From: a virus
Taxonomy: Duplodnaviria > Heunggongvirae > Uroviricota > Caudoviricetes
Direction: 5' to 3' (one strand)
DNA: 64,000 bases
IMG/VR virus record: IMGVR_UViG_2529292913_000008
This document shows, piece by piece, positions 44,909 to 52,946 of the stretch. Below the pieces are notes generated by a model. It made no database searches. It saw only the letters and a list, made by a program, of their open reading frames with translations, and had not been told where the DNA came from. The position numbers and the translations under genes were made by a program. Position 1 is the stretch's first letter. Each line of letters opens with the position of its first letter.

Positions 44909-46247
44909 CATAAGCGCTAACTTAAGGGTTGAACCATCTGAAGAATGCGACGCCTCGGTGCCTCGTTAAGACGATGCCTCGCGTTCTTCAATTGCGTTTT
45001 GTAGGCTGTCAGGGATACTGTCCCACGAATGGCCACCTGTAAGCTCCAGATGACCATTTTTGTTATTCTCCACAACGAGTTAGTTCTTCTTTTCGGATCC
45101 GGCACTTCTGGGGGGGAAATCCAGCGATGGCTGGATTATGTCGTCAATTAAAAATGCGGCGAGTAGATTAGCAAATATCCACGCTTTCGCGAGTTCAGGT
45201 TCCTTTGCACGCAAAGCATCCAGGTGCAGCAAACTTTTGAGCCGCTTAAAAGCCAGTTCAATTTGCCATCGCAGACGGTAACAATCAGCCACTTGCTCTG
45301 CTGAATATTCATCTTCCGGTAATGATGTTAGCAATAGCACATGGCCCGCTGCTTCCAGCGTTTCCGCCTGAACTACTCGTCCTTTTCGACGATTCTCGCT
45401 GAGCAGTCGGGTTTTACTGATTAATGCTTTTTCGGGAGGAAGTGATACGGCAATGAGACGTGCCGGAAAGGGAGCTCCGGCTTTTTTATTACCTGAATTG
45501 CCTATCATTACAGTGGTTTCACCGTTCTTACCGCAATCCAGCCCGCGCAGAAAACCCATCATGTCAAAGCGCATTCCTTCTGCAGTTAACCAGCGCAATC
45601 CTCGCCAGTGAACCCGGACGATATAATCAGCTTCTCCAAAAGCAAGTGAGCGGATACATTCGGGACGCGAACCGAATCCCCGGTCAGCAATGCGTATCTC
45701 GTCTGCCGTTTGCGCAAATCGGTCCAGCCGTTCAGCGTCTCTGCTGTCGGTTAGCTCAAAATCAGTGAACTGACAGGTATGAGGATCATATCCCATATGT
45801 AGTCGCCATTCAGCGCTGCCGCCCCCGGGCGCACTGATTGCTGTTCCATCGACAAGACGCAATCTCTTTCCGCTTGTACAACCCGTAACTGCGGCGCGTA
45901 CAGCAAGTGTTTGTGCGGCAAGTATGCCAAACCAGTCGGCGGCATTCCGCAGCCGCTTCAGGAGAGCCACGTCAGATAATGTTGCAACGTCATGGAGCTG
46001 AGCCCATGCAGTGACTTCACGTAATGACATCCCCCCGGGGCCGTAAGCCAGCCCCAGACGTAGCAGAGTTGCAGCATCACGAATTTCGCGGCGGCGGGTT
46101 AGAGCCCCGGCATTACGTGCCGAAGTATCCAGTTCTTCGGGCTTACCAATATGGGCCAGAATTGCTGACCAGTTATCGTGAGAGTAATTCATCGGCACGT
46201 TAAATCATATCAGGCGTAATACCACAACCCTTAAGTTAGCGCTTATG
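44909..46247 (-). mobile_element. IS186 (IS4 family), complete 1339 bp, 10 bp target duplication GGATCTCTCC
   Basis: terminal inverted repeats CATAAGCGCTAACTTAAGGGTTG at both ends; duplication at 44899-44908 and 46248-46257; reconstructed target GGGGATCTCTCCCC. Confidence 0.92.
45080..46198 (-). CDS. IS186 transposase
   Basis: 372 aa, matches IS186 transposase as recalled (MNYSHDNWSAILAHIGKPEELD...). Confidence 0.92.
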   Translation of the reverse strand: MPMNYSHDNWSAILAHIGKPEELDTSARNAGALTRRREIRDAATLLRLGLAYGPGGMSLREVTAWAQLHDVATLSDVALLKRLRNAADWFGILAAQTLAVRAAVTGCTSGKRLRLVDGTAISAPGGGSAEWRLHMGYDPHTCQFTDFELTDSRDAERLDRFAQTADEIRIADRGFGSRPECIRSLAFGEADYIVRVHWRGLRWLTAEGMRFDMMGFLRGLDCGKNGETTVMIGNSGNKKAGAPFPARLIAVSLPPEKALISKTRLLSENRRKGRVVQAETLEAAGHVLLLTSLPEDEYSAEQVADCYRLRWQIELAFKRLKSLLHLDALRAKEPELAKAWIFANLLAAFLIDDIIQPSLDFPPRSAGSEKKN

Positions 46248-46269
46248 GGATCTCTCCCCGCCAGGTCTC

Positions 46270-46425
46270 TTACCTTTCAGATTCGTAGGCTGTGAAGACA
46301 GTGACCTCCGTCTGGCCGGTTCGGATTCGTACCTCGCAGAGGTCTTTCCTCGTTACCAGTGCCGTCACAATGACGGTTAAACAGATGACGATCAGAGCGA
46401 TTAATATCGCTTTATGCTGCTTCAT
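46270..46425 (-). CDS. hok: Hok/Gef-family type I toxin
   Basis: 51 aa MKQHKAILIALIVICLTVIVTALVTRKDLCEVRIRTGQTEVTVFTAYESER; AGGAGA upstream. Confidence 0.85.
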   Translation of the reverse strand: MKQHKAILIALIVICLTVIVTALVTRKDLCEVRIRTGQTEVTVFTAYESER

Positions 46426-46606
46426 AGCCTGCTTCTCCTTGACCTTTTGGTCGGTAAGAGGCTAATCTACGTATGCTAAGCATAGATATGGCCTCAGATT
46501 AATGTTAAGCGTCTTGCAGGACGCGTAATGTTATCTGGGGCTTTCTTCTATCTGCTTTTCGGGTAATGCCTGAAGCAGATAGCCTCAAGCACCCGCAACG
46601 ATTGTA

Positions 46607-46852
46607 TCAATGTCTGGCTTTTTTTCTATAGAAATCACCTGGAAGGGTGAATATCCACATCAGAAGAAATGTTGCAGCAAACATGATCCCTAATGGCCAG
46701 ACCGCGCCAAAGAAAATCCATACTAAGATCTCCTCTGCTTGTTCTTTGCGGTCGATATCGACAAGCATTTTTCGGCTGATCATGTATACACAGAAGCCAA
46801 TACAAACATATCCTGCAAAAGCGATCGCTAACTGTAAAAAATCAGATTGCAT
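46607..46852 (-). CDS. small membrane protein (81 aa, two TM segments)
   Basis: start taken at MQSDFLQ with GAGG upstream; weak operator-like box 40 bp upstream. Confidence 0.45.
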   Translation of the reverse strand: MQSDFLQLAIAFAGYVCIGFCVYMISRKMLVDIDRKEQAEEILVWIFFGAVWPLGIMFAATFLLMWIFTLPGDFYRKKARH

Positions 46853-46902
46853 CTCCGACCTCAAACCGAAAACGCCAGGTGACTCCAGATTAGAGCAATC
46901 TA

Positions 46903-47172
46903 TCACCCTCTGAATCCTGCCGGTATACCCCATTGTTCGTTATCTTTATTTTTGGCTAAAACCGCATTAAGAGCTTCGTTTACCGTCATGCAATGCGGCA
47001 GATTATCGAAGTTTGATATCCCGCCAATATCAGGAGAACGCTTGTCCTTCAGGTAAGCATATTTCCGCGCTGCCGCCTCTACTTTCTGCTTGAACTCATG
47101 TTTTTGAGCGCGTTTTTTGGATAACCGCAGATTGTCAGCCTTTGCTTTTGCCTCAGCGATCCATGAAGTCAA
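46903..47172 (-). CDS. hypothetical basic protein (89 aa)
   Basis: ORF overlapping the stop of the upstream gene. Confidence 0.45.
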   Translation of the reverse strand: MTSWIAEAKAKADNLRLSKKRAQKHEFKQKVEAAARKYAYLKDKRSPDIGGISNFDNLPHCMTVNEALNAVLAKNKDNEQWGIPAGFRG

Positions 47173-47747
47173 TTTTTTGAGTCTGGTCGTTCCGGCACCG
47201 CCGGAAACTGATCTTTTTGTTTTTTAACTTGTGACTTCTTATTCTTTATTGCCACGTCATCCTGACAGGGGGAGGGGGTATCATTTTGACATGGGGGTGT
47301 GGATAAAAAATTAAATAAAGCCAATGTCTTAGCGAGAACAGCTTTAACCTTGGTTGCCGCTGAAGAGATCTTTAATTTGCTTTCAATCAGCGCATTTTTG
47401 GCTTGTTGTGCGAAGGCCAAAAAGGATGGTGTAAACCGGTACAGGTTAGCGCGACGTTCACGGTGATCGCCGATAACAATCTCTACAGACAGGATTCCTT
47501 TGTTTACAGCTTCACGGAATGCACGAACGACGGTTGATTGGCTATAACCAGTTTCTGCCGCGATCAGGCGGTGAGGCTTGTGAATGAAGTATTCACTGGT
47601 TGTTGCCGCGAGATTTGCACATTGCGACAAGATATGCCCGGCGCTACGGGATAGACCGGAGTGTGTTACAAAGCAGGCCAATTCATAGCCAGAAAAAGTA
47701 AAATCGCTCATCGTTATACAGCTCAGGAAAGTGACTTTAGCCAGCAT
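47169..47747 (-). CDS. winged-helix DNA-binding protein, possible RepL-like lytic replication protein
   Basis: 192 aa with HTH-like GYSQSTVVRAFREAVNKGIL; real start may be internal (MSDFTF); assignment by position after the KilA-N gene. Confidence 0.45.
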   Translation of the reverse strand: MLAKVTFLSCITMSDFTFSGYELACFVTHSGLSRSAGHILSQCANLAATTSEYFIHKPHRLIAAETGYSQSTVVRAFREAVNKGILSVEIVIGDHRERRANLYRFTPSFLAFAQQAKNALIESKLKISSAATKVKAVLAKTLALFNFLSTPPCQNDTPSPCQDDVAIKNKKSQVKKQKDQFPAVPERPDSKN

Positions 47748-47776
47748 TACAATGCTGGTGGTTCTTACTACGTCTG

Positions 47777-48577
47777 TTAGCGCGTCGCCGCGACAGGCAC
47801 CAGCACACCAGCATCAAGCAATCGCTTCATAAGCCACTGCTGACCTTTGCCGGTTATACGAGTCGTGAAAGAAATCCTGCTTCCATTGCTTGTATCGATC
47901 ACGGTTTCTTTAAGGGTGAAATACCCACGGGATATGTATTCTTGTTTGGGGACGTTCCTGCGTTCACCGGTTGCGATCAGAATTCCGTTATCACGCAACC
48001 AGGTGAAGAGATAGTTTTGGCCCAGGCCGAGCACTTTGGCATAGTTGCCGATTAGAACCCCGCTGGCGGTAGCAACGCGTTCGGCGAATTCGACTTTAGG
48101 TGCATCCATAAGCATTTTTTGCTCCAGCCGTTGCTTTTGCTCTGCCAGGTCGGCAGCCAAACGGAGAGCTTCAGGGAGACTCTGCGGAATAGCAGGTTGT
48201 AATCTTCCAGCTCGATAGTCGATAAATGTCTGGTTTACCTTCAGCCGAAACGCGGGAGAAATCCAGCCTGCGTACTCCACAGCGAGCAATTCATGGGCAA
48301 AAGTGCCGCCGCCACGGCCTTCGAACGAAACTATGCAATTCTGCATAGTTTCTTTTTCAAGCTCTTCGATGAGCTGTTTAGCTGACAGCGTTCTTAGCCA
48401 TTGAGCTGGCGCTTTATGGGCACCGAGTCCGCTCGCTCTGTGTAGAGCATTAAGGTTGTAACGGCCAGCGCGGTCGGTCGTAATTTCAACACCACAAATA
48501 ACGGGCAGAGTGGTTGAAGGATCGACATTTTGATGAAGGTTTGATATATTCATATCCGCATTGAATGTTTGTTGCAT
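47777..48577 (-). CDS. KilA-N domain / antirepressor C-terminal domain protein
   Basis: 266 aa; C-terminal 150 aa paralogous to the C-terminus of the next gene. Confidence 0.7.
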   Translation of the reverse strand: MQQTFNADMNISNLHQNVDPSTTLPVICGVEITTDRAGRYNLNALHRASGLGAHKAPAQWLRTLSAKQLIEELEKETMQNCIVSFEGRGGGTFAHELLAVEYAGWISPAFRLKVNQTFIDYRAGRLQPAIPQSLPEALRLAADLAEQKQRLEQKMLMDAPKVEFAERVATASGVLIGNYAKVLGLGQNYLFTWLRDNGILIATGERRNVPKQEYISRGYFTLKETVIDTSNGSRISFTTRITGKGQQWLMKRLLDAGVLVPVAATR

Positions 48578-48646
48578 TTTTTCTCCAAATTTGCATCAAC
48601 CTTCAATCACCAGCTCGAAATGGTGATTCTTTGCACTTAGAAAACG

Positions 48647-48663
48647 AAATTTATTAGAGCAAA
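48647..48663 (-). promoter_or_regulatory. operator-like box TTTGCTCTAATAAATTT (16/17)
   Basis: minus-strand reading, 70 bp upstream of the KilA-N gene start. Confidence 0.55.
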
Positions 48664-48740
48664 TTTTTCTGACTCGATCCAGATCGGGTTGGACGATCTG
48701 CTCAGAAACCTGCCAGTTTGCTGGCAGGTTTTTTCTTTTG

Positions 48741-49784
48741 TTAACCTATTGCTACTGGTTTTAACAAACCAGCATCAAGTAGCTTGCGAGTTAACCACTG
48801 CTGGCCTTTACCCGTTAATTGGGGCGTCAGCCGTATCTGGTAGCCATTTTCATCATCCAGCACCACTTCTTTCACCGTGAAATACCCGGCGTTGATGTAC
48901 TGTTGGCGCGGTACGTTTTTGCGCGCACCAAAAGCCATGAGAATGCCGTTCTGGCGCAACCATGAGAAAAGGGCGTTTTGCTTAAGTCCAACGACCTTTG
49001 CAAAGTTCCCGATCAGGATTCCATTAGCCGCTGATACCCGGTCGGCAAAATCGACTTTAGGGGCTGCGGCCACCAGCTGTTGTTCCAACTGCATTTTCTG
49101 TTCTGCCAACTCGGCAGCCAGGCGTAGAGCGTCTGGTAATGTTTGGGGGATCGATGGGGCAGGGGAGTTTGCCTGCTGCAATTCTTCCAGTTTGTCGATC
49201 AGCGAACGGCGGACTGCTTTTGACTCGCGCGCGGCGACTCGCAGGGCTTGTTTGTAGGTCATGGTTATGACAACCATAGGCGTACCGCCACCTGGCGGCA
49301 CGGTTGCACTTTTTGTGTAACCGTCCTCACCTTCTAATTCGTCGAGTATTTTTTTGATGAATTTGTTGTTCCGAACCTCTGGTTCCCCACATAACTTACG
49401 CGCTTCATTGACCATCTTTAACAGCGTCTGGCTGTCGATTGTGTCTCCAGTGTTGGAGATAACATTCACAGCTGGTGATGGCGTAGCTGAAGCAACAGAT
49501 GCTGGTTTTTTAACATTCAAATTATTACTGGTCATTCTATGTGCCTCCTTTCTCATTTCTGCTGCCACCGTTGCGTAACGTAGACGTCCTTGTTCAATCA
49601 AATAATCCCTGATCTCGGCTATCAGTAGCCTGTTGATCACAGCCTTATCTGTTCGGGTATAAAAACGTCTGGTTATCATGAAATAGTTGGCAATTGCGCC
49701 GGGGATCTCCCGTGTCGGCATACAGGCAGTATGCAGGGCGATCGCTTCGGCTATGTCATTACGGGTGACGAGAGGTTTTTTCAT
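48741..49784 (-). CDS. ant: antirepressor (Ant-like)
   Basis: 347 aa; C-terminal domain shared with the KilA-N gene; start overlaps icd-like stop. Confidence 0.7.
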   Translation of the reverse strand: MKKPLVTRNDIAEAIALHTACMPTREIPGAIANYFMITRRFYTRTDKAVINRLLIAEIRDYLIEQGRLRYATVAAEMRKEAHRMTSNNLNVKKPASVASATPSPAVNVISNTGDTIDSQTLLKMVNEARKLCGEPEVRNNKFIKKILDELEGEDGYTKSATVPPGGGTPMVVITMTYKQALRVAARESKAVRRSLIDKLEELQQANSPAPSIPQTLPDALRLAAELAEQKMQLEQQLVAAAPKVDFADRVSAANGILIGNFAKVVGLKQNALFSWLRQNGILMAFGARKNVPRQQYINAGYFTVKEVVLDDENGYQIRLTPQLTGKGQQWLTRKLLDAGLLKPVAIG

Positions 49785-50002
49785 AAAACCCCCTGAACGT
49801 CGGCAGAGAAGGGGAGGTTCCAGTAACTAAGTGAATTGCGCGAGTTAGTTGAAAAACGGGCAGTAAAAATGCAGGGGCCATCAGGCAATTGAGAGCGTGC
49901 TTCGTCTTCTGTTGCTGCGATGACGAAGTGATAGTGGTGTTTTTTGCAGGAATAGAAACGCCAGATGAATTCTTGGCGTGCGCAAGGATTGGCATTAACC
50001 AT
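49781..50002 (-). CDS. icd: Icd-like cell-division inhibitor
   Basis: 73 aa with QEFIWRF...HFVIAATEDEARSQL pattern recalled for Icd-like proteins; GAGG at 8 nt. Confidence 0.5.
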   Translation of the reverse strand: MVNANPCARQEFIWRFYSCKKHHYHFVIAATEDEARSQLPDGPCIFTARFSTNSRNSLSYWNLPFSADVQGVL

Positions 50003-50029
50003 AGTTACGGCCTCGTAAGTTGATAAACA

Positions 50030-50241
50030 ACCTGCGACCCGCTGCTAAACAGGTGGCAGGACGTGACGGGGTTAGCAGACTGGCACTTACGAAACCAGCA
50101 GGCCGAAGCCTCCCCATCACGCCCCACCATAATTCGGGCGTAACGTGGTTTACGGACACAAAAATACCGCAATATCGGAAATCTGCGGTTGTCCGCGTAA
50201 GTATTCAGGCTGCTAAACCCGGTCGCAGAATTTGCTACGAC
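50030..50241 (-). ncRNA. immI-like leader; candidate c4-like antisense regulatory RNA region
   Basis: minus-strand GGGUUUAGCAGC twice (plus 50209-50220 and 50039-50050) and a near-complementary GUCUGCUAACCCC (plus 50069-50081). Confidence 0.35.
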
Positions 50242-50247
50242 GGCGAA

Positions 50248-50276
50248 ACTATAAGCCTGAACGATTAAAAGGTCAA
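50248..50276 (-). promoter_or_regulatory. sigma70-type promoter for the immI-like operon (TTGACC-17-TATAGT)
   Basis: minus-strand -35 at plus 50271-50276 and -10 at 50248-50253. Confidence 0.55.
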
Positions 50277-50313
50277 TATGATGCAAAAAGATAGCATTCG
50301 CGACTTAAAAATA

Positions 50314-50330
50314 CAAATTTATTAGAGCAG
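50314..50330 (-). promoter_or_regulatory. operator-like box (15/17) upstream of the immI-like promoter
   Basis: minus-strand reading CTGCTCTAATAAATTTG. Confidence 0.5.
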
Positions 50331-50612
50331 ATTAGTGTCGTGCAATAGATATATTATTTGTGATGAAAAATAATGCAGATGGATATTGTAACTTTAAGAT
50401 GGATATCAATAGTCGATACATAAATTAAGTTAGCAATAAACTATTAACTTAAGAAATAATGCAGATGGTGAACTTGTCTCTGACTTTTCAGCTATACACA
50501 ATAAGTTAGGGATAGCTTATAAAAAGTTGATTAATTGATATAAGTCAATGGGAGTATTCTTGTTTACTTTCCGTTCTTGTGGTAACTTCTCGCCGGTTTT
50601 TGTTTTTCTGGG

Positions 50613-51134
50613 ATGATTCTTATGTCTAAAAAGTATACTTTATGCGCTCTTGTTGTATCTGCAATTCTTCTTTCTGGGTGTCAATCTAGCGGTGCTGATT
50701 ATGCTGCCGATGTTTATGATACCGCTCAATTGAATTCGAAGCAGGAAACAAAGACAGTCAATATTATCTCTGTGCTTCCAGCTAAAGTGAAAGTTGATAA
50801 TAAAGCTAATAAAGAAGCGGCACAGACATTTGGTGCGGTACTGGGAGCTGTTGCTGGGGGCGTTGCCGGTTATAATGTTAAAGGCACATCGACACTGGGT
50901 GCTGTAGCTGGCGGTACTGGTGGTGCGGCTCTTGGTGCAGCGGCTGGTTCTTTGGTTAGTGATAAAACAATTGTTGAAGGTGTTTCACTGACTTATAAAG
51001 AAGGAACTAAGGTGTTCACTTCAACTCAAGTTGGTAAAGCATGCCAGTTTACAACGGGGCTTGCTGTGCTTATTTCAACTAAAGATAATGAAACTCGAAT
51101 TCAGCCAAATGCTACTTGTCCAGAAAAGAAATAA
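50613..51134 (+). CDS. lipoprotein with Gly-zipper region
   Basis: lipobox LLSGC; GAVAGGxGG repeats; AT-rich gene. Confidence 0.6.
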   Translation: MILMSKKYTLCALVVSAILLSGCQSSGADYAADVYDTAQLNSKQETKTVNIISVLPAKVKVDNKANKEAAQTFGAVLGAVAGGVAGYNVKGTSTLGAVAGGTGGAALGAAAGSLVSDKTIVEGVSLTYKEGTKVFTSTQVGKACQFTTGLAVLISTKDNETRIQPNATCPEKK

Positions 51135-51137
51135 TTT

Positions 51138-51677
51138 ATGAATAAAATTATTTTATTTCTAATCTTTTCTACGTTTAGTGTAGGCACTGCCTTGGCTAAC
51201 TCGTTGCAAAGTCAAATTGCTGCTATTGCTCAAGCGGAAAATGAAGGGCGAGCTAAAGAGCAGCAAGCTGAGGATGCCAGAAAAGAACTTATTCGCCAAC
51301 AAGCACAAGCTGAACGTATTAGAAGAGAAAAAGCAGCATCTGCCGCTGCTGCACGCGAAAAACAGCGTGTTGCTGCAGAAAATGAACGTAGAGCGAAACG
51401 AGAAGCCGAGCTAGCAAATGACAAGAAGCGAGATCAAGCTTATGAGGATGAGCTTCGCAAGCTGCAACTCGAAAGCATGAAACTCGAACTGCAAGCAAAA
51501 GCGGCTCGTGTCCAGCGAGAAAACGATTTTATAGAGCAGGAGTTGAAGGAGAGAGCAGCTAAGACAGATGTAATTCAGTCTGAGGCTGATGCAAATAGAA
51601 ATATTTCTACAGGAAGTAAAGATTTACTGCAAAGCGAAGGAAAAGCTAGAGAGAAGAAAGCTAGCAGTTGGTGGTAG
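51138..51677 (+). CDS. secreted coiled-coil protein
   Basis: N-terminal signal peptide; E/R/K/A-rich heptad-like body. Confidence 0.6.
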   Translation: MNKIILFLIFSTFSVGTALANSLQSQIAAIAQAENEGRAKEQQAEDARKELIRQQAQAERIRREKAASAAAAREKQRVAAENERRAKREAELANDKKRDQAYEDELRKLQLESMKLELQAKAARVQRENDFIEQELKERAAKTDVIQSEADANRNISTGSKDLLQSEGKAREKKASSWW

Positions 51678-51733
51678 TAATCACTACGATTGCGAGCATA
51701 CTGTCACAAATGACAACTCGTAGAATCTGTTAA

Positions 51734-52324
<591 letters not shown>

Positions 52325-52334
52325 GAGGGCTGAT

Positions 52335-52946
52335 ATGGGGTTTAATGTTGCTTCAGTAAAGTCTTATGTATCTTCGGCATTAACGACGACATTATTTGGC
52401 TCCGGCGTTGGTGAACGGGAAGTTGGTAAGCTGACGTCAATCATCATGAACAAAATGCTGTTCGCGCAAGGATGGCAGTTCTCTGTCGAAGTTGATGGAC
52501 TGGAGGGGGCAGACTTCTTTGCCAAAGATATTACCTACCACGATTACAGCATCGAATATGAAACGATTAAAATCGGCGGAGGGAATATCCTTCAACCAAC
52601 GGAGCGTTCGCCTGGGCAGATAACAATGATGGTCAGGGATACCGTTGATGGCCTCGTTTTGGACTGGTTTAAGACGGCAAAAAGTCGGGTGATCAATCCG
52701 GACGGTACCGGGAATATACCGTCTAAATATTTGCTCAATGTGCGTATTTATCGGTTGCTGTCTTCCGGCTTAACCAAACTGGAAAATGAGATGACGGTAT
52801 TCCCGGTCACTACCGGCGATGTCACCTATGCGCGAGATCAGGTTACTGAATTTAAGTCATTCCCAATGACCTTCGCATTGCACAGCACGTTTAACCAATC
52901 CTCAAGTTCTTTGGCTTCCCTTCTGGGCTTTAGCTTTTCTCTTTGA
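52335..52946 (+). CDS. hypothetical phage tail protein (possibly tube)
   Basis: 203 aa ORF; position only. Confidence 0.45.
   Translation: MGFNVASVKSYVSSALTTTLFGSGVGEREVGKLTSIIMNKMLFAQGWQFSVEVDGLEGADFFAKDITYHDYSIEYETIKIGGGNILQPTERSPGQITMMVRDTVDGLVLDWFKTAKSRVINPDGTGNIPSKYLLNVRIYRLLSSGLTKLENEMTVFPVTTGDVTYARDQVTEFKSFPMTFALHSTFNQSSSSLASLLGFSFSL

What the first reader, a model, noticed from the sequence alone, without database searches (positions are those of the whole stretch)
47777..50330. immI-like antirepressor module with a candidate antisense RNA, plus a tandem paralog
A sigma70-type promoter (TTGACC-17-TATAGT) and an operator-like box precede a 235 nt leader, an Icd-like ORF and an overlapping Ant-like ORF. 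The leader holds two copies of GGGUUUAGCAGC and one near-complementary GUCUGCUAACCCC, the pattern expected for a c4-type antisense RNA pairing with target sites on its own transcript. A second gene with a KilA-N N-terminus shares the Ant C-terminal domain.
Basis: partly seen in the sequence, partly recalled or inferred. Interest (0 to 1): 0.6.

Follow-up and report, generated by a model that had tools for sequence, protein, structure and literature searches.

The report
Phage P1-type immI antirepressor control module
This stretch is the well-known secondary immunity region (immI) of a P1/P7-like phage-plasmid, in which a small processed antisense RNA (C4) keeps an antirepressor gene silent. 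It is ordinary for this phage family, although its RNA carries a recognition-site combination that differs from the textbook P1 and P7 versions.

Summary
Window 50331-48741 (minus strand) is the immI operon of a P1/P7/D6-family phage-plasmid, in this order:
- C1 operator Op51
- promoters P51a and P51b
- a1/b1 leader
- c4 antisense RNA (50128-50052)
- a2/b2 targets at the icd ribosome site
- icd
- ant1/ant2

The "tandem paralog" is kilA. It is the first gene of the separate C1-controlled kilA-repL lytic replicon.

Main evidence:
- The region is 96-98% identical to P1, P7 and other Punavirus records.
- Rfam C4 (70.8 bits) and c4-a1b1 (55.3 bits) both score above their gathering thresholds.
- Every annotated P1 signal maps onto the window.
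- In 116/116 related loci the two exposed C4 segments have exact complements on both sides. All pairs are Watson-Crick, and 8 of 14 pairs show changes on both sides.

Here it is the phage D6 type (CGUAAGU/ACUUACG), combined with the P7-type a element. That is one of 12 a×b combinations seen in the sample.

The a1b1 leader plus a weak terminator also matches Rfam isrK, a link I did not find in the papers I could read.

The system is already known, so interest is low.

The parts
50315..50331 (-). C1 repressor operator Op51 (Oc4), overlapping the -35 of P51a
   Evidence: The exact 15-nt core TGCTCTAATAAATTT is present. The window has 8 matches against 0.24 expected. Position maps from the P1 annotation.
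50288..50317 (-). Promoter P51a (P2c4), C1-controlled; hexamers TTTGTAT / TATCTT
   Evidence: The hexamers are identical to those annotated in P1 AF234172.
50248..50276 (-). Promoter P51b (P1c4), TTGACC-17-TATAGT.
   Evidence: Found by the promoter scan with a 10/12 match. Identical to the P1 annotation.
50160..50241 (-). 5' leader RNA. It has two hairpins (the c4-a1b1 motif) carrying a1 and followed by b1, then a weak terminator-like hairpin (50189-50166) and a U run (50164-50160). It is homologous to the IsrK sRNA.
   Evidence: Rfam c4-a1b1 scores 55.3 bits (gathering score 46.7). Rfam isrK scores 47.9 bits (gathering score 50) with the full model length matched. Folding is; the hairpin energy is -8.5 kcal/mol.
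50210..50216 (-). a1 target UUAGCAG (P7-type a element)
   Evidence: Maps from the P1 annotation. It is the exact complement of a'.
50196..50202 (-). b1 target ACUUACG (D6-type b element)
   Evidence: Covaries with b' in 36 distinct leaders.
50052..50128 (-). c4 antisense RNA, predicted mature 77-nt form
   Evidence: Rfam C4 scores 70.8 bits (gathering score 45) at 50134-50049. The ends are mapped from the P1 misc_RNA feature. The fold is -45.7 kcal/mol, z -5.2, and leaves a' and b' unpaired.
50085..50091 (-). b' recognition segment CGUAAGU in the 9-nt hairpin loop of C4
50072..50078 (-). a' recognition segment CUGCUAA in the single-stranded junction of C4
50042..50048 (-). a2 target UUAGCAG
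50011..50020 (-). b2 target ACUUACG (50020-50014), overlapping the icd Shine-Dalgarno GAGG (50014-50011)
   Evidence: Read from the sequence. Supported.
49781..50002 (-). icd, cell-division inhibitor, 73 aa. Its stop overlaps the ant1 start (ATGA).
   Evidence: 70/73 residues identical to P1 Icd and 72/73 to P7 Icd. NCBIfam phage_ICD_like scores 52.7 bits.
48741..49784 (-). ant1 (347 aa) with the in-frame internal start of ant2 at 49535 (AAGGAGG upstream). Together these form the antirepressor.
   Evidence: 322/347 residues identical to P1 Ant1 and 314/348 to P7 Ant1. Pfam ANT/KilAC, E 5e-31. The ant2 start is mapped.
48704..48733 (.). 13-bp hairpin between ant and kilA, terminator-like. The T run is stronger on the + strand.
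   Evidence: Terminator scan.
48647..48681 (-). Promoter P53 (PkilA) with C1 operator Op53 (48663-48647), preceded by Dam GATC sites
   Evidence: Identical to the P1 annotation. Exact operator match.
48522..48550 (+). Promoter P53as (PaskilA), giving an RNA antisense to the kilA 5' end
   Evidence: Promoter scan: TCGACA-17-TATATT, 10/12 match, with an extended TG. Identical to the P1 annotation.
47777..48577 (-). kilA (266 aa), KilA-N plus KilAC/ANT domains.
   Evidence: Pfam KilA-N, E 3.7e-21, and ANT, E 2e-32. 265/266 residues identical to P1 KilA and 266/266 to P7 KilA. 50% identical to the Ant C-terminal half.
46903..47747 (-). repL with oriL, the lytic replicon. It is frameshifted here by loss of one A in an A7 run near 47225-47220.
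   Evidence: Alignment with P1 and P7 repL. The window reads as ORFs of 192 aa and 89 aa.

Best explanation
This is the immI operon of a P1/P7/D6-family phage-plasmid, and it most likely works as the P1 paradigm does.

1. Transcription starts at P51b, and also at the C1-repressible P51a. It produces one transcript carrying a1/b1, c4, a2/b2, icd and ant1/ant2.
2. The c4 segment folds into a tRNA-like long stem with two inner elements. It is cut out as a roughly 77-nt RNA, by RNase P at the 5' end in P1.
3. The junction segment a' (CUGCUAA) and the loop segment b' (CGUAAGU) pair with a2 and b2 on the same kind of transcript.
4. b2 abuts the icd Shine-Dalgarno sequence, so icd translation is blocked.
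5. ant depends on icd translation, through the overlapping ATGA and through Rho-dependent polarity in P1. Antirepressor is therefore not made, and C1 repression (lysogeny and immunity) holds.
6. The upstream a1/b1 copy sits in a structured leader that ends in a weak terminator. It probably acts as a competing decoy for C4.

Specificity lies in the a and b sequences. This element has the P7 a type and the D6 b type, so its C4 should not silence P1 or P7 ant fully, and theirs should not silence this one.

kilA-repL downstream is a separate C1-controlled (Op53) lytic replicon.

What is shown here: homology, the anatomy, the RNA fold and the covariation of the pairings. What is inferred from P1/P7 genetics: processing, the translational block and the consequence for immunity.
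For: - The region is 98.0% identical over its full length to Punavirus records, 97.5% to P7 and 95.9% to P1, with c4, icd, ant1/2, kilA and repL annotated under the match.
- It is 100.0% identical over 6.3 kb to plasmid pSvP1.
- Rfam C4 scores 70.8 bits and c4-a1b1 55.3 bits, both above their gathering scores.
- The C4 fold is -45.7 kcal/mol with z -5.2, and a' and b' are unpaired.
- Predicted duplex energy of the window's own b' with the window's b1 and b2 is -11.5 and -14.4 kcal/mol. The P1 and P7 b' segments give only -4.3 to -8.3.
- In 36 distinct leaders, 100% of 504 cells are Watson-Crick paired for a'/b' with a1/b1 and equally with a2/b2. Eight of 14 pairs change on both sides and none changes on one side only. 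Versions slid by 1-3 columns pair at only 26-52%.
- 116/116 loci with full flanks carry exact 7-nt a and b targets on both sides of their own c4.
- The chance of the four sites in this leader is about 3e-10.
- All P1 promoters, operators and starts map with identical hexamers.
- Icd, Ant1 and KilA are 90-100% identical to their P1 and P7 counterparts.
- C1 operators are enriched in the window, 8 against 0.24 expected.
- The mechanism in P1 is summarised in PMC8198154, PMC8546580, PMC12197685 and PMC2864571 supplement 1. RNase P processing is cited in PMC11143913.
Against: - Nothing in the sequence contradicts this reading.
- There is no expression or processing data for this element.
- The c1 repressor gene was not located in the window. 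Only its operators were found.
- repL next door is frameshifted, so the element may not be a fully viable phage.
- The decoy role of a1/b1 is only a proposal, even for P1.
- Whether the a and b pairings are each necessary for repression was not tested. The predicted heteroimmunity toward P1, P7 and D6 is therefore an inference.
Confidence: 0.95

Rival explanations
1. The module is an inactive relic. The plasmid has lost phage competence, and the immI region is carried along without regulating anything.
For: - repL carries a 1-nt deletion in an A7 run, giving ORFs of 192 aa and 89 aa in place of the 281-aa protein.
- P1 homology ends inside Op55 at about 46889. It is followed by hok/sok and an IS421-family transposase.
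- pSvP1, which is 100.0% identical over this part, is described as a rearranged P1-like plasmid with IS-mediated insertions (PMC6906374).
Against: - Every immI signal and ORF is intact.
- All six recognition sites are exactly complementary.
- The identical 245-nt leader occurs in 14 other IMG/VR loci.
- The repL change sits in a homopolymer and is absent from pSvP1, which has an 846-nt CDS, so it may be a sequencing error.
Confidence: 0.1
2. The c4 region encodes a protein repressor, as some database records still annotate it ('c4: CDS' in X15639 and 'transcriptional regulator C4' in RCS47), rather than an RNA.
For: - ORFs overlap the leader on the minus strand: 50286-50005 (93 aa) and 50159-49995 (54 aa).
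- Those annotations appear.
Against: - The variation among relatives is confined to the paired 7-nt segments.
- That variation is strictly compensatory at three separate sites. This is an RNA-pairing signature, not a coding one.
- The Rfam covariance model matches above its gathering score.
- The P1 and P7 genome records annotate c4 as a misc_RNA.
Confidence: 0.02
3. Besides, or instead of, blocking icd translation, C4 acts through the a1/b1 leader. In this reading the first 82 nt are released at the weak terminator as an IsrK-like sRNA that titrates C4 and so turns ant on, and C4 pairing at b1 may modulate that terminator as phage P4 CI RNA does. This is an extension of the classical model rather than a replacement.
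For: - Rfam isrK matches the full model length at 50241-50160 (47.9 bits, E 2e-9).
- The segment has a hairpin plus a U run.
- An isrK match lies about 25-30 nt upstream of a C4 match in three other phage records, and all three isrK matches are above the gathering score.
- In Gifsy-1 a short IsrK ends at its terminator. Read-through gives an RNA of about 80 nt (STnc1160) that is processed and is complementary to IsrK. IsrK supplied in trans raises translation of the antirepressor AnrP more than 100-fold (PMC4825925).
- Competition of a1/b1 with a2/b2 was proposed for P1 (PMC2864571 supplement).
Against: - The isrK score here is just below the gathering score (47.9 against 50).
- The hairpin is weak: -8.5 kcal/mol, z -1.1, and 30 of 200 shuffles fold as well.
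- The terminator scan did not list it.
- The P1 annotation has no terminator there.
- The IsrK authors explain their data by alternative mRNA structures rather than by titration of an antisense RNA.
Confidence: 0.4

Closest known systems
Phage P7 immI operon (c4-icd-ant1/ant2), AF503408
   Same: - Same gene order and the same signals.
- 97.5% DNA identity over the region.
- Identical a element (a' CUGCUAA, a1/a2 UUAGCAG).
- The same upstream neighbours, upf50.5 and upf50.0, in place of the P1 sim genes.
- Icd 72/73 and KilA 266/266 residues identical.
   Different: - The b element differs at all three sites: window CGUAAGU/ACUUACG against P7 CACAAUC/GAUUGUG.
- Ant1 is only 314/348 identical.
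Phage P1 immI operon, AF234172 / NC_005856
   Same: - All annotated features (Op51, P51a, P51b, a1, b1, c4, a2, b2, icd, ant1, ant2, P53/Op53, P53as, kilA, repL) map with the same spacing and identical hexamers.
- 95.9% DNA identity.
   Different: - Both recognition elements differ: P1 a is UUGACAG and P1 b is GUUAGUG.
- P1 has simABC upstream of c4, and the window does not.
Phage D6 c4-icd region, MF356679
   Same: - Identical b element (b' CGUAAGU, b1/b2 ACUUACG) and identical sequence flanking b2.
- The leader is 95.2% identical.
- Rfam C4 and c4-a1b1 are both found.
   Different: - D6 has the P1-type a element.
- Its antirepressor is a different, Roi-like protein.
- Its repL lies upstream of c4 rather than downstream.
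IsrK-STnc1160-anrP locus of Salmonella prophage Gifsy-1 and related lambdoid modules (Rfam isrK RF01394)
   Same: - The layout is the same: promoter, two-hairpin leader with a terminator, an RNA of about 80 nt that is processed and is complementary to the leader, then a short ORF coupled to an antirepressor gene (PMC4825925).
- isrK and C4 models hit side by side in lambdoid phages.
- The window leader matches the full isrK model.
   Different: - The window scores 47.9 bits, just under the isrK gathering score.
- The published mechanism is activation by the short RNA through mRNA refolding.
- I did not find the relation to c4 stated in the papers read.
- I did not examine the Gifsy-1 sequence itself.
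Phage P4 CI RNA immunity
   Same: An RNA processed out of an untranslated transcript pairs with complementary sequences located both upstream and downstream of itself on that transcript (as described in PMC4825925).
   Different: - CI RNA causes premature transcription termination of replication genes rather than blocking an antirepressor ribosome site.
- No sequence comparison was made here.

Membership tests
P1/P7-type immI operon | C1 operator (Op51) overlapping promoter P51a, plus a second promoter P51b upstream of c4 | tested here: met
   There is an exact operator core at 50329-50315. The hexamers are identical to the P1 annotation. P51b was found independently by the promoter scan.
P1/P7-type immI operon | A c4 RNA gene with the C4 fold (long closing stem, tetraloop hairpin, second hairpin, single-stranded junction) | tested here: met
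   Rfam RF01695 scores 70.8 bits against a gathering score of 45, with the full model matched. The minimum-energy fold has the same architecture, z -5.2.
P1/P7-type immI operon | Two exposed segments a' and b' complementary to a2/b2 at the icd ribosome site and to a1/b1 upstream of c4 | tested here: met
   Exact 7-nt complements occur at all four sites. Pairing is 100% Watson-Crick with changes on both sides across 36 distinct leaders. 116/116 loci show the exact targets on both sides.
P1/P7-type immI operon | An icd ORF followed by ant1, with nested in-frame ant2, overlapping the icd stop | tested here: met
   Icd is 70-72/73 identical and Ant1 90-93% identical to the P1 and P7 proteins. The ATGA overlap is at 49784-49781. 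The ant2 ATG at 49535 has AAGGAGG upstream.
P1/P7-type immI operon | C4 is processed to about 77 nt (RNase P at the 5' end) and represses ant in trans | not testable with these tools
   This is known for P1 and P7 only from the literature (reference lists). No expression data exist for this element.
P1/P7-type immI operon | Immunity specificity equal to P1 or to P7 | tested here: not met
   The a element is P7 type. The b element matches neither phage; it is D6 type. This does not affect membership of the family. It affects only which specificity class the element belongs to.
P1 lytic replicon (kilA-repL under P53/Op53) | Op53 overlapping P53, the antisense promoter P53as, kilA, then repL containing oriL | tested here: met
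   All the signals are identical to P1. KilA is 265-266/266 identical. repL is 99% identical in DNA but has a 1-nt deletion that shifts the reading frame.
Rfam isrK (RF01394) | Score at or above the curated gathering threshold of 50 bits | tested here: not met
   The score is 47.9 bits over the full model (1-77) with E 2e-9. Homology is likely, but formal membership is just missed. D6 gives 46.5 bits. The lambdoid examples give 53.8-67 bits.

The most novel reading that the evidence does not exclude
The a and b recognition elements of C4 may form a combinatorial immunity code among P1-like phage-plasmids.

- In a sample of 124 loci, two a types and seven b types occur in 12 combinations.
- Five of the b types are found with both a types.
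- All three copies (target 1, antisense, target 2) match exactly in every locus that has full flanks.
- The window carries the P7-a/D6-b combination. It would therefore be heteroimmune at immI to P1, to P7 and to D6.
- The copies are interleaved along the transcript (a1 b1 ... b' a' a2 ... b2). A new combination therefore cannot arise from a single crossover, which raises the question of how triple-matched sets are generated.
- Linked to this, the a1b1-terminator leader would be the same entity as the IsrK sRNA family, acting as an anti-antisense decoy. That would unify the P1 c4 literature with the Salmonella IsrK literature.

I found no description of either point in the papers available to me.
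Probability: 0.35. Interest if true: 0.5.

Novelty: already known. Interest (0 to 1): 0.2.

Why it matters
For annotation, it matters that this region is recognised as immI with an unannotated c4 RNA. The closest plasmid records list only Icd-like, Ant and KilAC proteins, and some phage records still call c4 a protein.

Biologically, the region decides whether a superinfecting relative is silenced. Which a/b allele a phage-plasmid carries should therefore determine which P1-like elements can invade a cell that already holds one. P1-like plasmids spread resistance and virulence genes in E. coli and Salmonella (PMC6906374), so this has practical relevance.

As a discovery it adds little, because the system has been understood since about 1990.

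Tried and rejected
- The first IMG/VR scan used seven Ns in the C4 loop instead of six and found nothing. The corrected scan is.
- Motif counting alone does not show significance: GTTTAGCAGC with up to 1 mismatch gives 4 matches against 4.3 expected, and ACTTACG gives 8 against 4.75. I relied on position, complementarity and covariation instead.
- Pfam gives nothing for Icd, or for RepL in either fragment. NCBIfam names only Icd.
- Weak Rfam hits in the region (ctRNA_p42d, mir-1231, Six3os1, ceN48, mir-10) lie far below their gathering scores and were dismissed as chance.
- A second C4 module in the window was considered, because pSvP1 is reported to carry extra icd-ant homologues. The whole-window Rfam scan shows only one.
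- Literature was searched for a description of more than two c4 specificity alleles, or of an IsrK-c4 link. Nothing was found.
- These papers are not held in the library: Gilcrease and Casjens 2018, Lobocka 2004, Citron and Schuster 1992, and Heinrich 1994. What I say about RNase P cleavage, the 77-nt size, Rho-dependent polarity and P1/P7 heteroimmunity rests on secondary citations and on my own knowledge.
Full report
**What is there.** The finding region reads on the minus strand. Megablast against phage genomes gives full-length matches. Identity is 98.0% to three 'Punavirus P1' records, 97.5% to P7 and 95.9% to P1. The features annotated under the match are c4, icd, ant1, ant2, kilA and repL. 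Against plasmids, window 52500-46225 is 100.0% identical to E. coli plasmid pSvP1 and to a pig-faeces plasmid. 88 plasmids cover at least 80% of the 7.5-kb query (window 45000-52500). The window also carries eight matches to the C1 operator core against 0.24 expected, three tRNAs, and IS elements. It therefore comes from a P1-like phage-plasmid.

**Checking the observation.** The operator-like box is Op51. The leader from about 50241 to the icd ATG at 50002 is about 239 nt. The icd and ant ORFs overlap in an ATGA. The downstream gene has KilA-N and KilAC/ANT domains and is 50% identical to the C-terminal 200 residues of Ant. One detail is off. Only the 10-mer GUUUAGCAGC is repeated exactly, and the second copy is preceded by CU rather than GG.

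**Anatomy.** I aligned the region with the richly annotated P1 record and transferred the coordinates. All coordinates below are on the minus strand unless marked.

| Feature | Window coordinates |
|---|---|
| Op51 | 50331-50315 |
| P51a | 50317-50288 |
| P51b | 50276-50248 |
| a1 | 50216-50210 |
| b1 | 50202-50196 |
| c4 RNA | 50128-50052 |
| a2 | 50048-50042 |
| b2 | 50020-50014, touching the icd Shine-Dalgarno GAGG |
| icd | 50002-49781 |
| ant1 | 49784-48741 |
| ant2 | starts at 49535 |
| Three Dam sites, P53 and Op53 | 48698-48647 |
| Antisense promoter P53as | 48522-48550, plus strand |
| kilA | 48577-47777 |
| repL | 47747-46903 |

All hexamers are identical to P1. Identity to the P1 and P7 proteins is as follows.

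| Protein | vs P1 | vs P7 |
|---|---|---|
| Icd | 70/73 | 72/73 |
| Ant1 | 322/347 | 314/348 |
| KilA | 265/266 | 266/266 |

**The RNA.**
- Rfam places C4 (70.8 bits, gathering score 45) at 50134-50049.
- It places the c4-a1b1 target motif (55.3 bits, gathering score 46.7) at 50254-50202.
- The 77-nt RNA folds at -45.7 kcal/mol (z -5.2). The fold is a long closing stem, a UUCG hairpin, a second hairpin with a 9-nt loop, and a 7-nt single-stranded junction.
- The junction holds a' (CUGCUAA) and the loop holds b' (CGUAAGU). Each has an exact 7-nt complement once upstream and once downstream of c4.
- The chance of those four sites, given the leader's composition, is about 3e-10.

**Evidence from relatives.**
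- I scanned IMG/VR for the conserved C4 backbone with the loop left free.
- The 117 leaders with full flanks (116 fetched loci plus the window itself) reduce to 36 distinct sequences. The window's exact 245-nt leader is shared by 14 of the IMG/VR loci.
- On the alignment of the 36 I counted the intermolecular pairs a'/b' with a1/b1, and separately with a2/b2.
- In both cases all 504 cells are Watson-Crick pairs. Eight of 14 pairs change on both sides and none changes on one side only. No shuffle reaches the observed covariation score. Versions slid by 1-3 columns pair at only 26-52%.
- Across the fetched loci with full flanks, 116 of 116 carry the exact targets of their own C4 on both sides.
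- This is as strong a comparative proof of the pairing model as sequence can give. One caveat applies: the sample is restricted to close relatives by the search pattern.

**Specificity.**
- P1 and P7 differ in both elements. P1 has a = UUGACAG and b = GUUAGUG. P7 has a = UUAGCAG and b = GAUUGUG.
- The window has the P7 a element. Its b element (ACUUACG) belongs to neither phage. It is the b element of phage D6, which in turn has the P1 a element.
- In the sample there are two a types and seven b types in 12 combinations. The window's combination accounts for 18 of 124 loci.
- Predicted duplexes of the window's targets are much weaker with the P1 or P7 b' segment (-4.3 to -8.3 kcal/mol) than with its own (-11.5 and -14.4).
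- I infer that this element forms an immI specificity class of its own. That needs genetic tests.

**Mechanism.** The steps are taken from P1 and P7 work as summarised in the papers I could read and from my own knowledge of Citron and Schuster 1990/1992, Biere et al. 1992 and Hartmann et al. 1995.
1. C4 is cut out of the operon's own transcript.
2. It pairs with a2 and b2 and blocks the icd ribosome site.
3. This prevents ant expression, which depends on icd translation.
4. Without Ant1/Ant2, C1 stays active.
5. C1 also represses P51a through Op51.

All sequence requirements for these steps are present here. Processing and repression themselves are not shown for this element.

**The leader.**
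- The first 82 nt of the transcript (50241-50160) match the whole Rfam isrK model (47.9 bits, just under the gathering score of 50, E 2e-9).
- The match covers the two a1b1 hairpins, a linker containing b1, and a hairpin followed by a U run. The hairpin is weak (-8.5 kcal/mol, not better than shuffles).
- The same pair of models lies side by side in three other phage records, an E. coli O157 phage-derived contig, phage mEp460 and a Salmonella phage. There the isrK scores are 53.8-67 bits and the C4 scores 80-84 bits.
- The Gifsy-1 IsrK study describes a short terminated IsrK and read-through into an antirepressor operon. It also describes a processed RNA of about 80 nt, complementary to IsrK, and more than 100-fold activation of antirepressor translation by IsrK in trans. 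It does not cite c4.
- A 2025 review lists IsrK and c4 as unrelated items.
- The simplest reading is that IsrK is the a1b1 decoy proposed for P1 and that STnc1160 is a C4 homologue. I did not examine the Gifsy-1 sequence itself, so this stays a lead.

**What kilA is.** The 'tandem paralog' is P1 kilA. It has its own C1-controlled promoter P53/Op53 and is followed by repL/oriL, the lytic replicon. It shares the KilAC/ANT domain with Ant but is not part of immI.

**Verdict.** The system is already known, and the sequence itself is in public records. The points that go beyond the textbook are the D6-type b element combined with a P7-type a element, the combinatorial set of alleles, and the isrK homology of the leader. 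They are modest and may already be in literature I could not reach.

Noticed in passing
window 47220-47225 (within repL, 46903-47747, minus strand): One A is missing from an A7 run compared with P1 and P7. This splits the 281-aa RepL into ORFs of 192 aa and 89 aa. The near-identical plasmid pSvP1 has an intact 846-nt CDS. The change is either a homopolymer sequencing error or an inactivated lytic replicon.
   Followed up: partly
window 50160-50241 (minus strand); L125 514-709; L126 and L127 1492-1680: The a1b1 leader plus a weak terminator matches Rfam isrK over the full model. isrK and C4 hits sit about 25-30 nt apart in three other phage records (an E. coli O157 phage-derived contig, mEp460 and a Salmonella phage). 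This suggests that the Salmonella IsrK sRNA is the a1b1 part of a C4-type antirepressor switch. The papers I read do not make this connection.
   Followed up: partly
L003-L122 (IMG/VR loci), L124 (phage D6): Among P1-like elements the C4 recognition elements come in two a types and seven b types, in 12 combinations. Five b types occur with both a types. The three copies of each element are interleaved (a1 b1 b' a' a2 b2), so a single crossover cannot create a new matched combination.
   Followed up: partly
window 46879-46899: Homology to P1 and P7 ends inside the C1 operator Op55 just after repL (ATTGCTCTAAT, then unrelated sequence). The rlfA/rapA region is replaced by other DNA.
   Followed up: no
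window 46270-46594 (minus strand): A hok/sok-type toxin-antitoxin locus: Rfam sok scores 114.9 bits at 46594-46420, and a 51-aa Hok-like ORF lies at 46425-46270.
   Followed up: no
window 45080-46198 (minus strand): An ORF for an IS4-family transposase (372 aa), annotated as IS421 family in matching plasmids.
   Followed up: no
window 50613-51677 (plus strand): Upstream of c4, and divergently oriented, lie a lipoprotein gene and a DUF5384 gene, as in P7 (upf50.5, upf50.0). P1 has the simABC superimmunity genes at this position.
   Followed up: partly
window 29060-29083, 12664, 17524, 18431, 32345: Further matches to the C1 operator core, including an overlapping inverted pair at 29060-29083 that looks like a bivalent operator.
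   Followed up: no
window 4419-4488; 25967-26039; 28248-28398: An RNA-OUT match (IS10-type antisense RNA, 98.8 bits) and three tRNA genes.
   Followed up: no
L127 (phage mEp460) 1132-2283: The annotated 'regulatory protein Rha' CDS runs straight across the isrK and C4 RNA matches (1492-1680). The CDS start is probably annotated too far upstream.
   Followed up: no
window 48704-48733: A 13-bp perfect hairpin between ant and kilA. It has a better T run on the plus strand than on the strand of the genes, and it is not annotated in P1.
   Followed up: no
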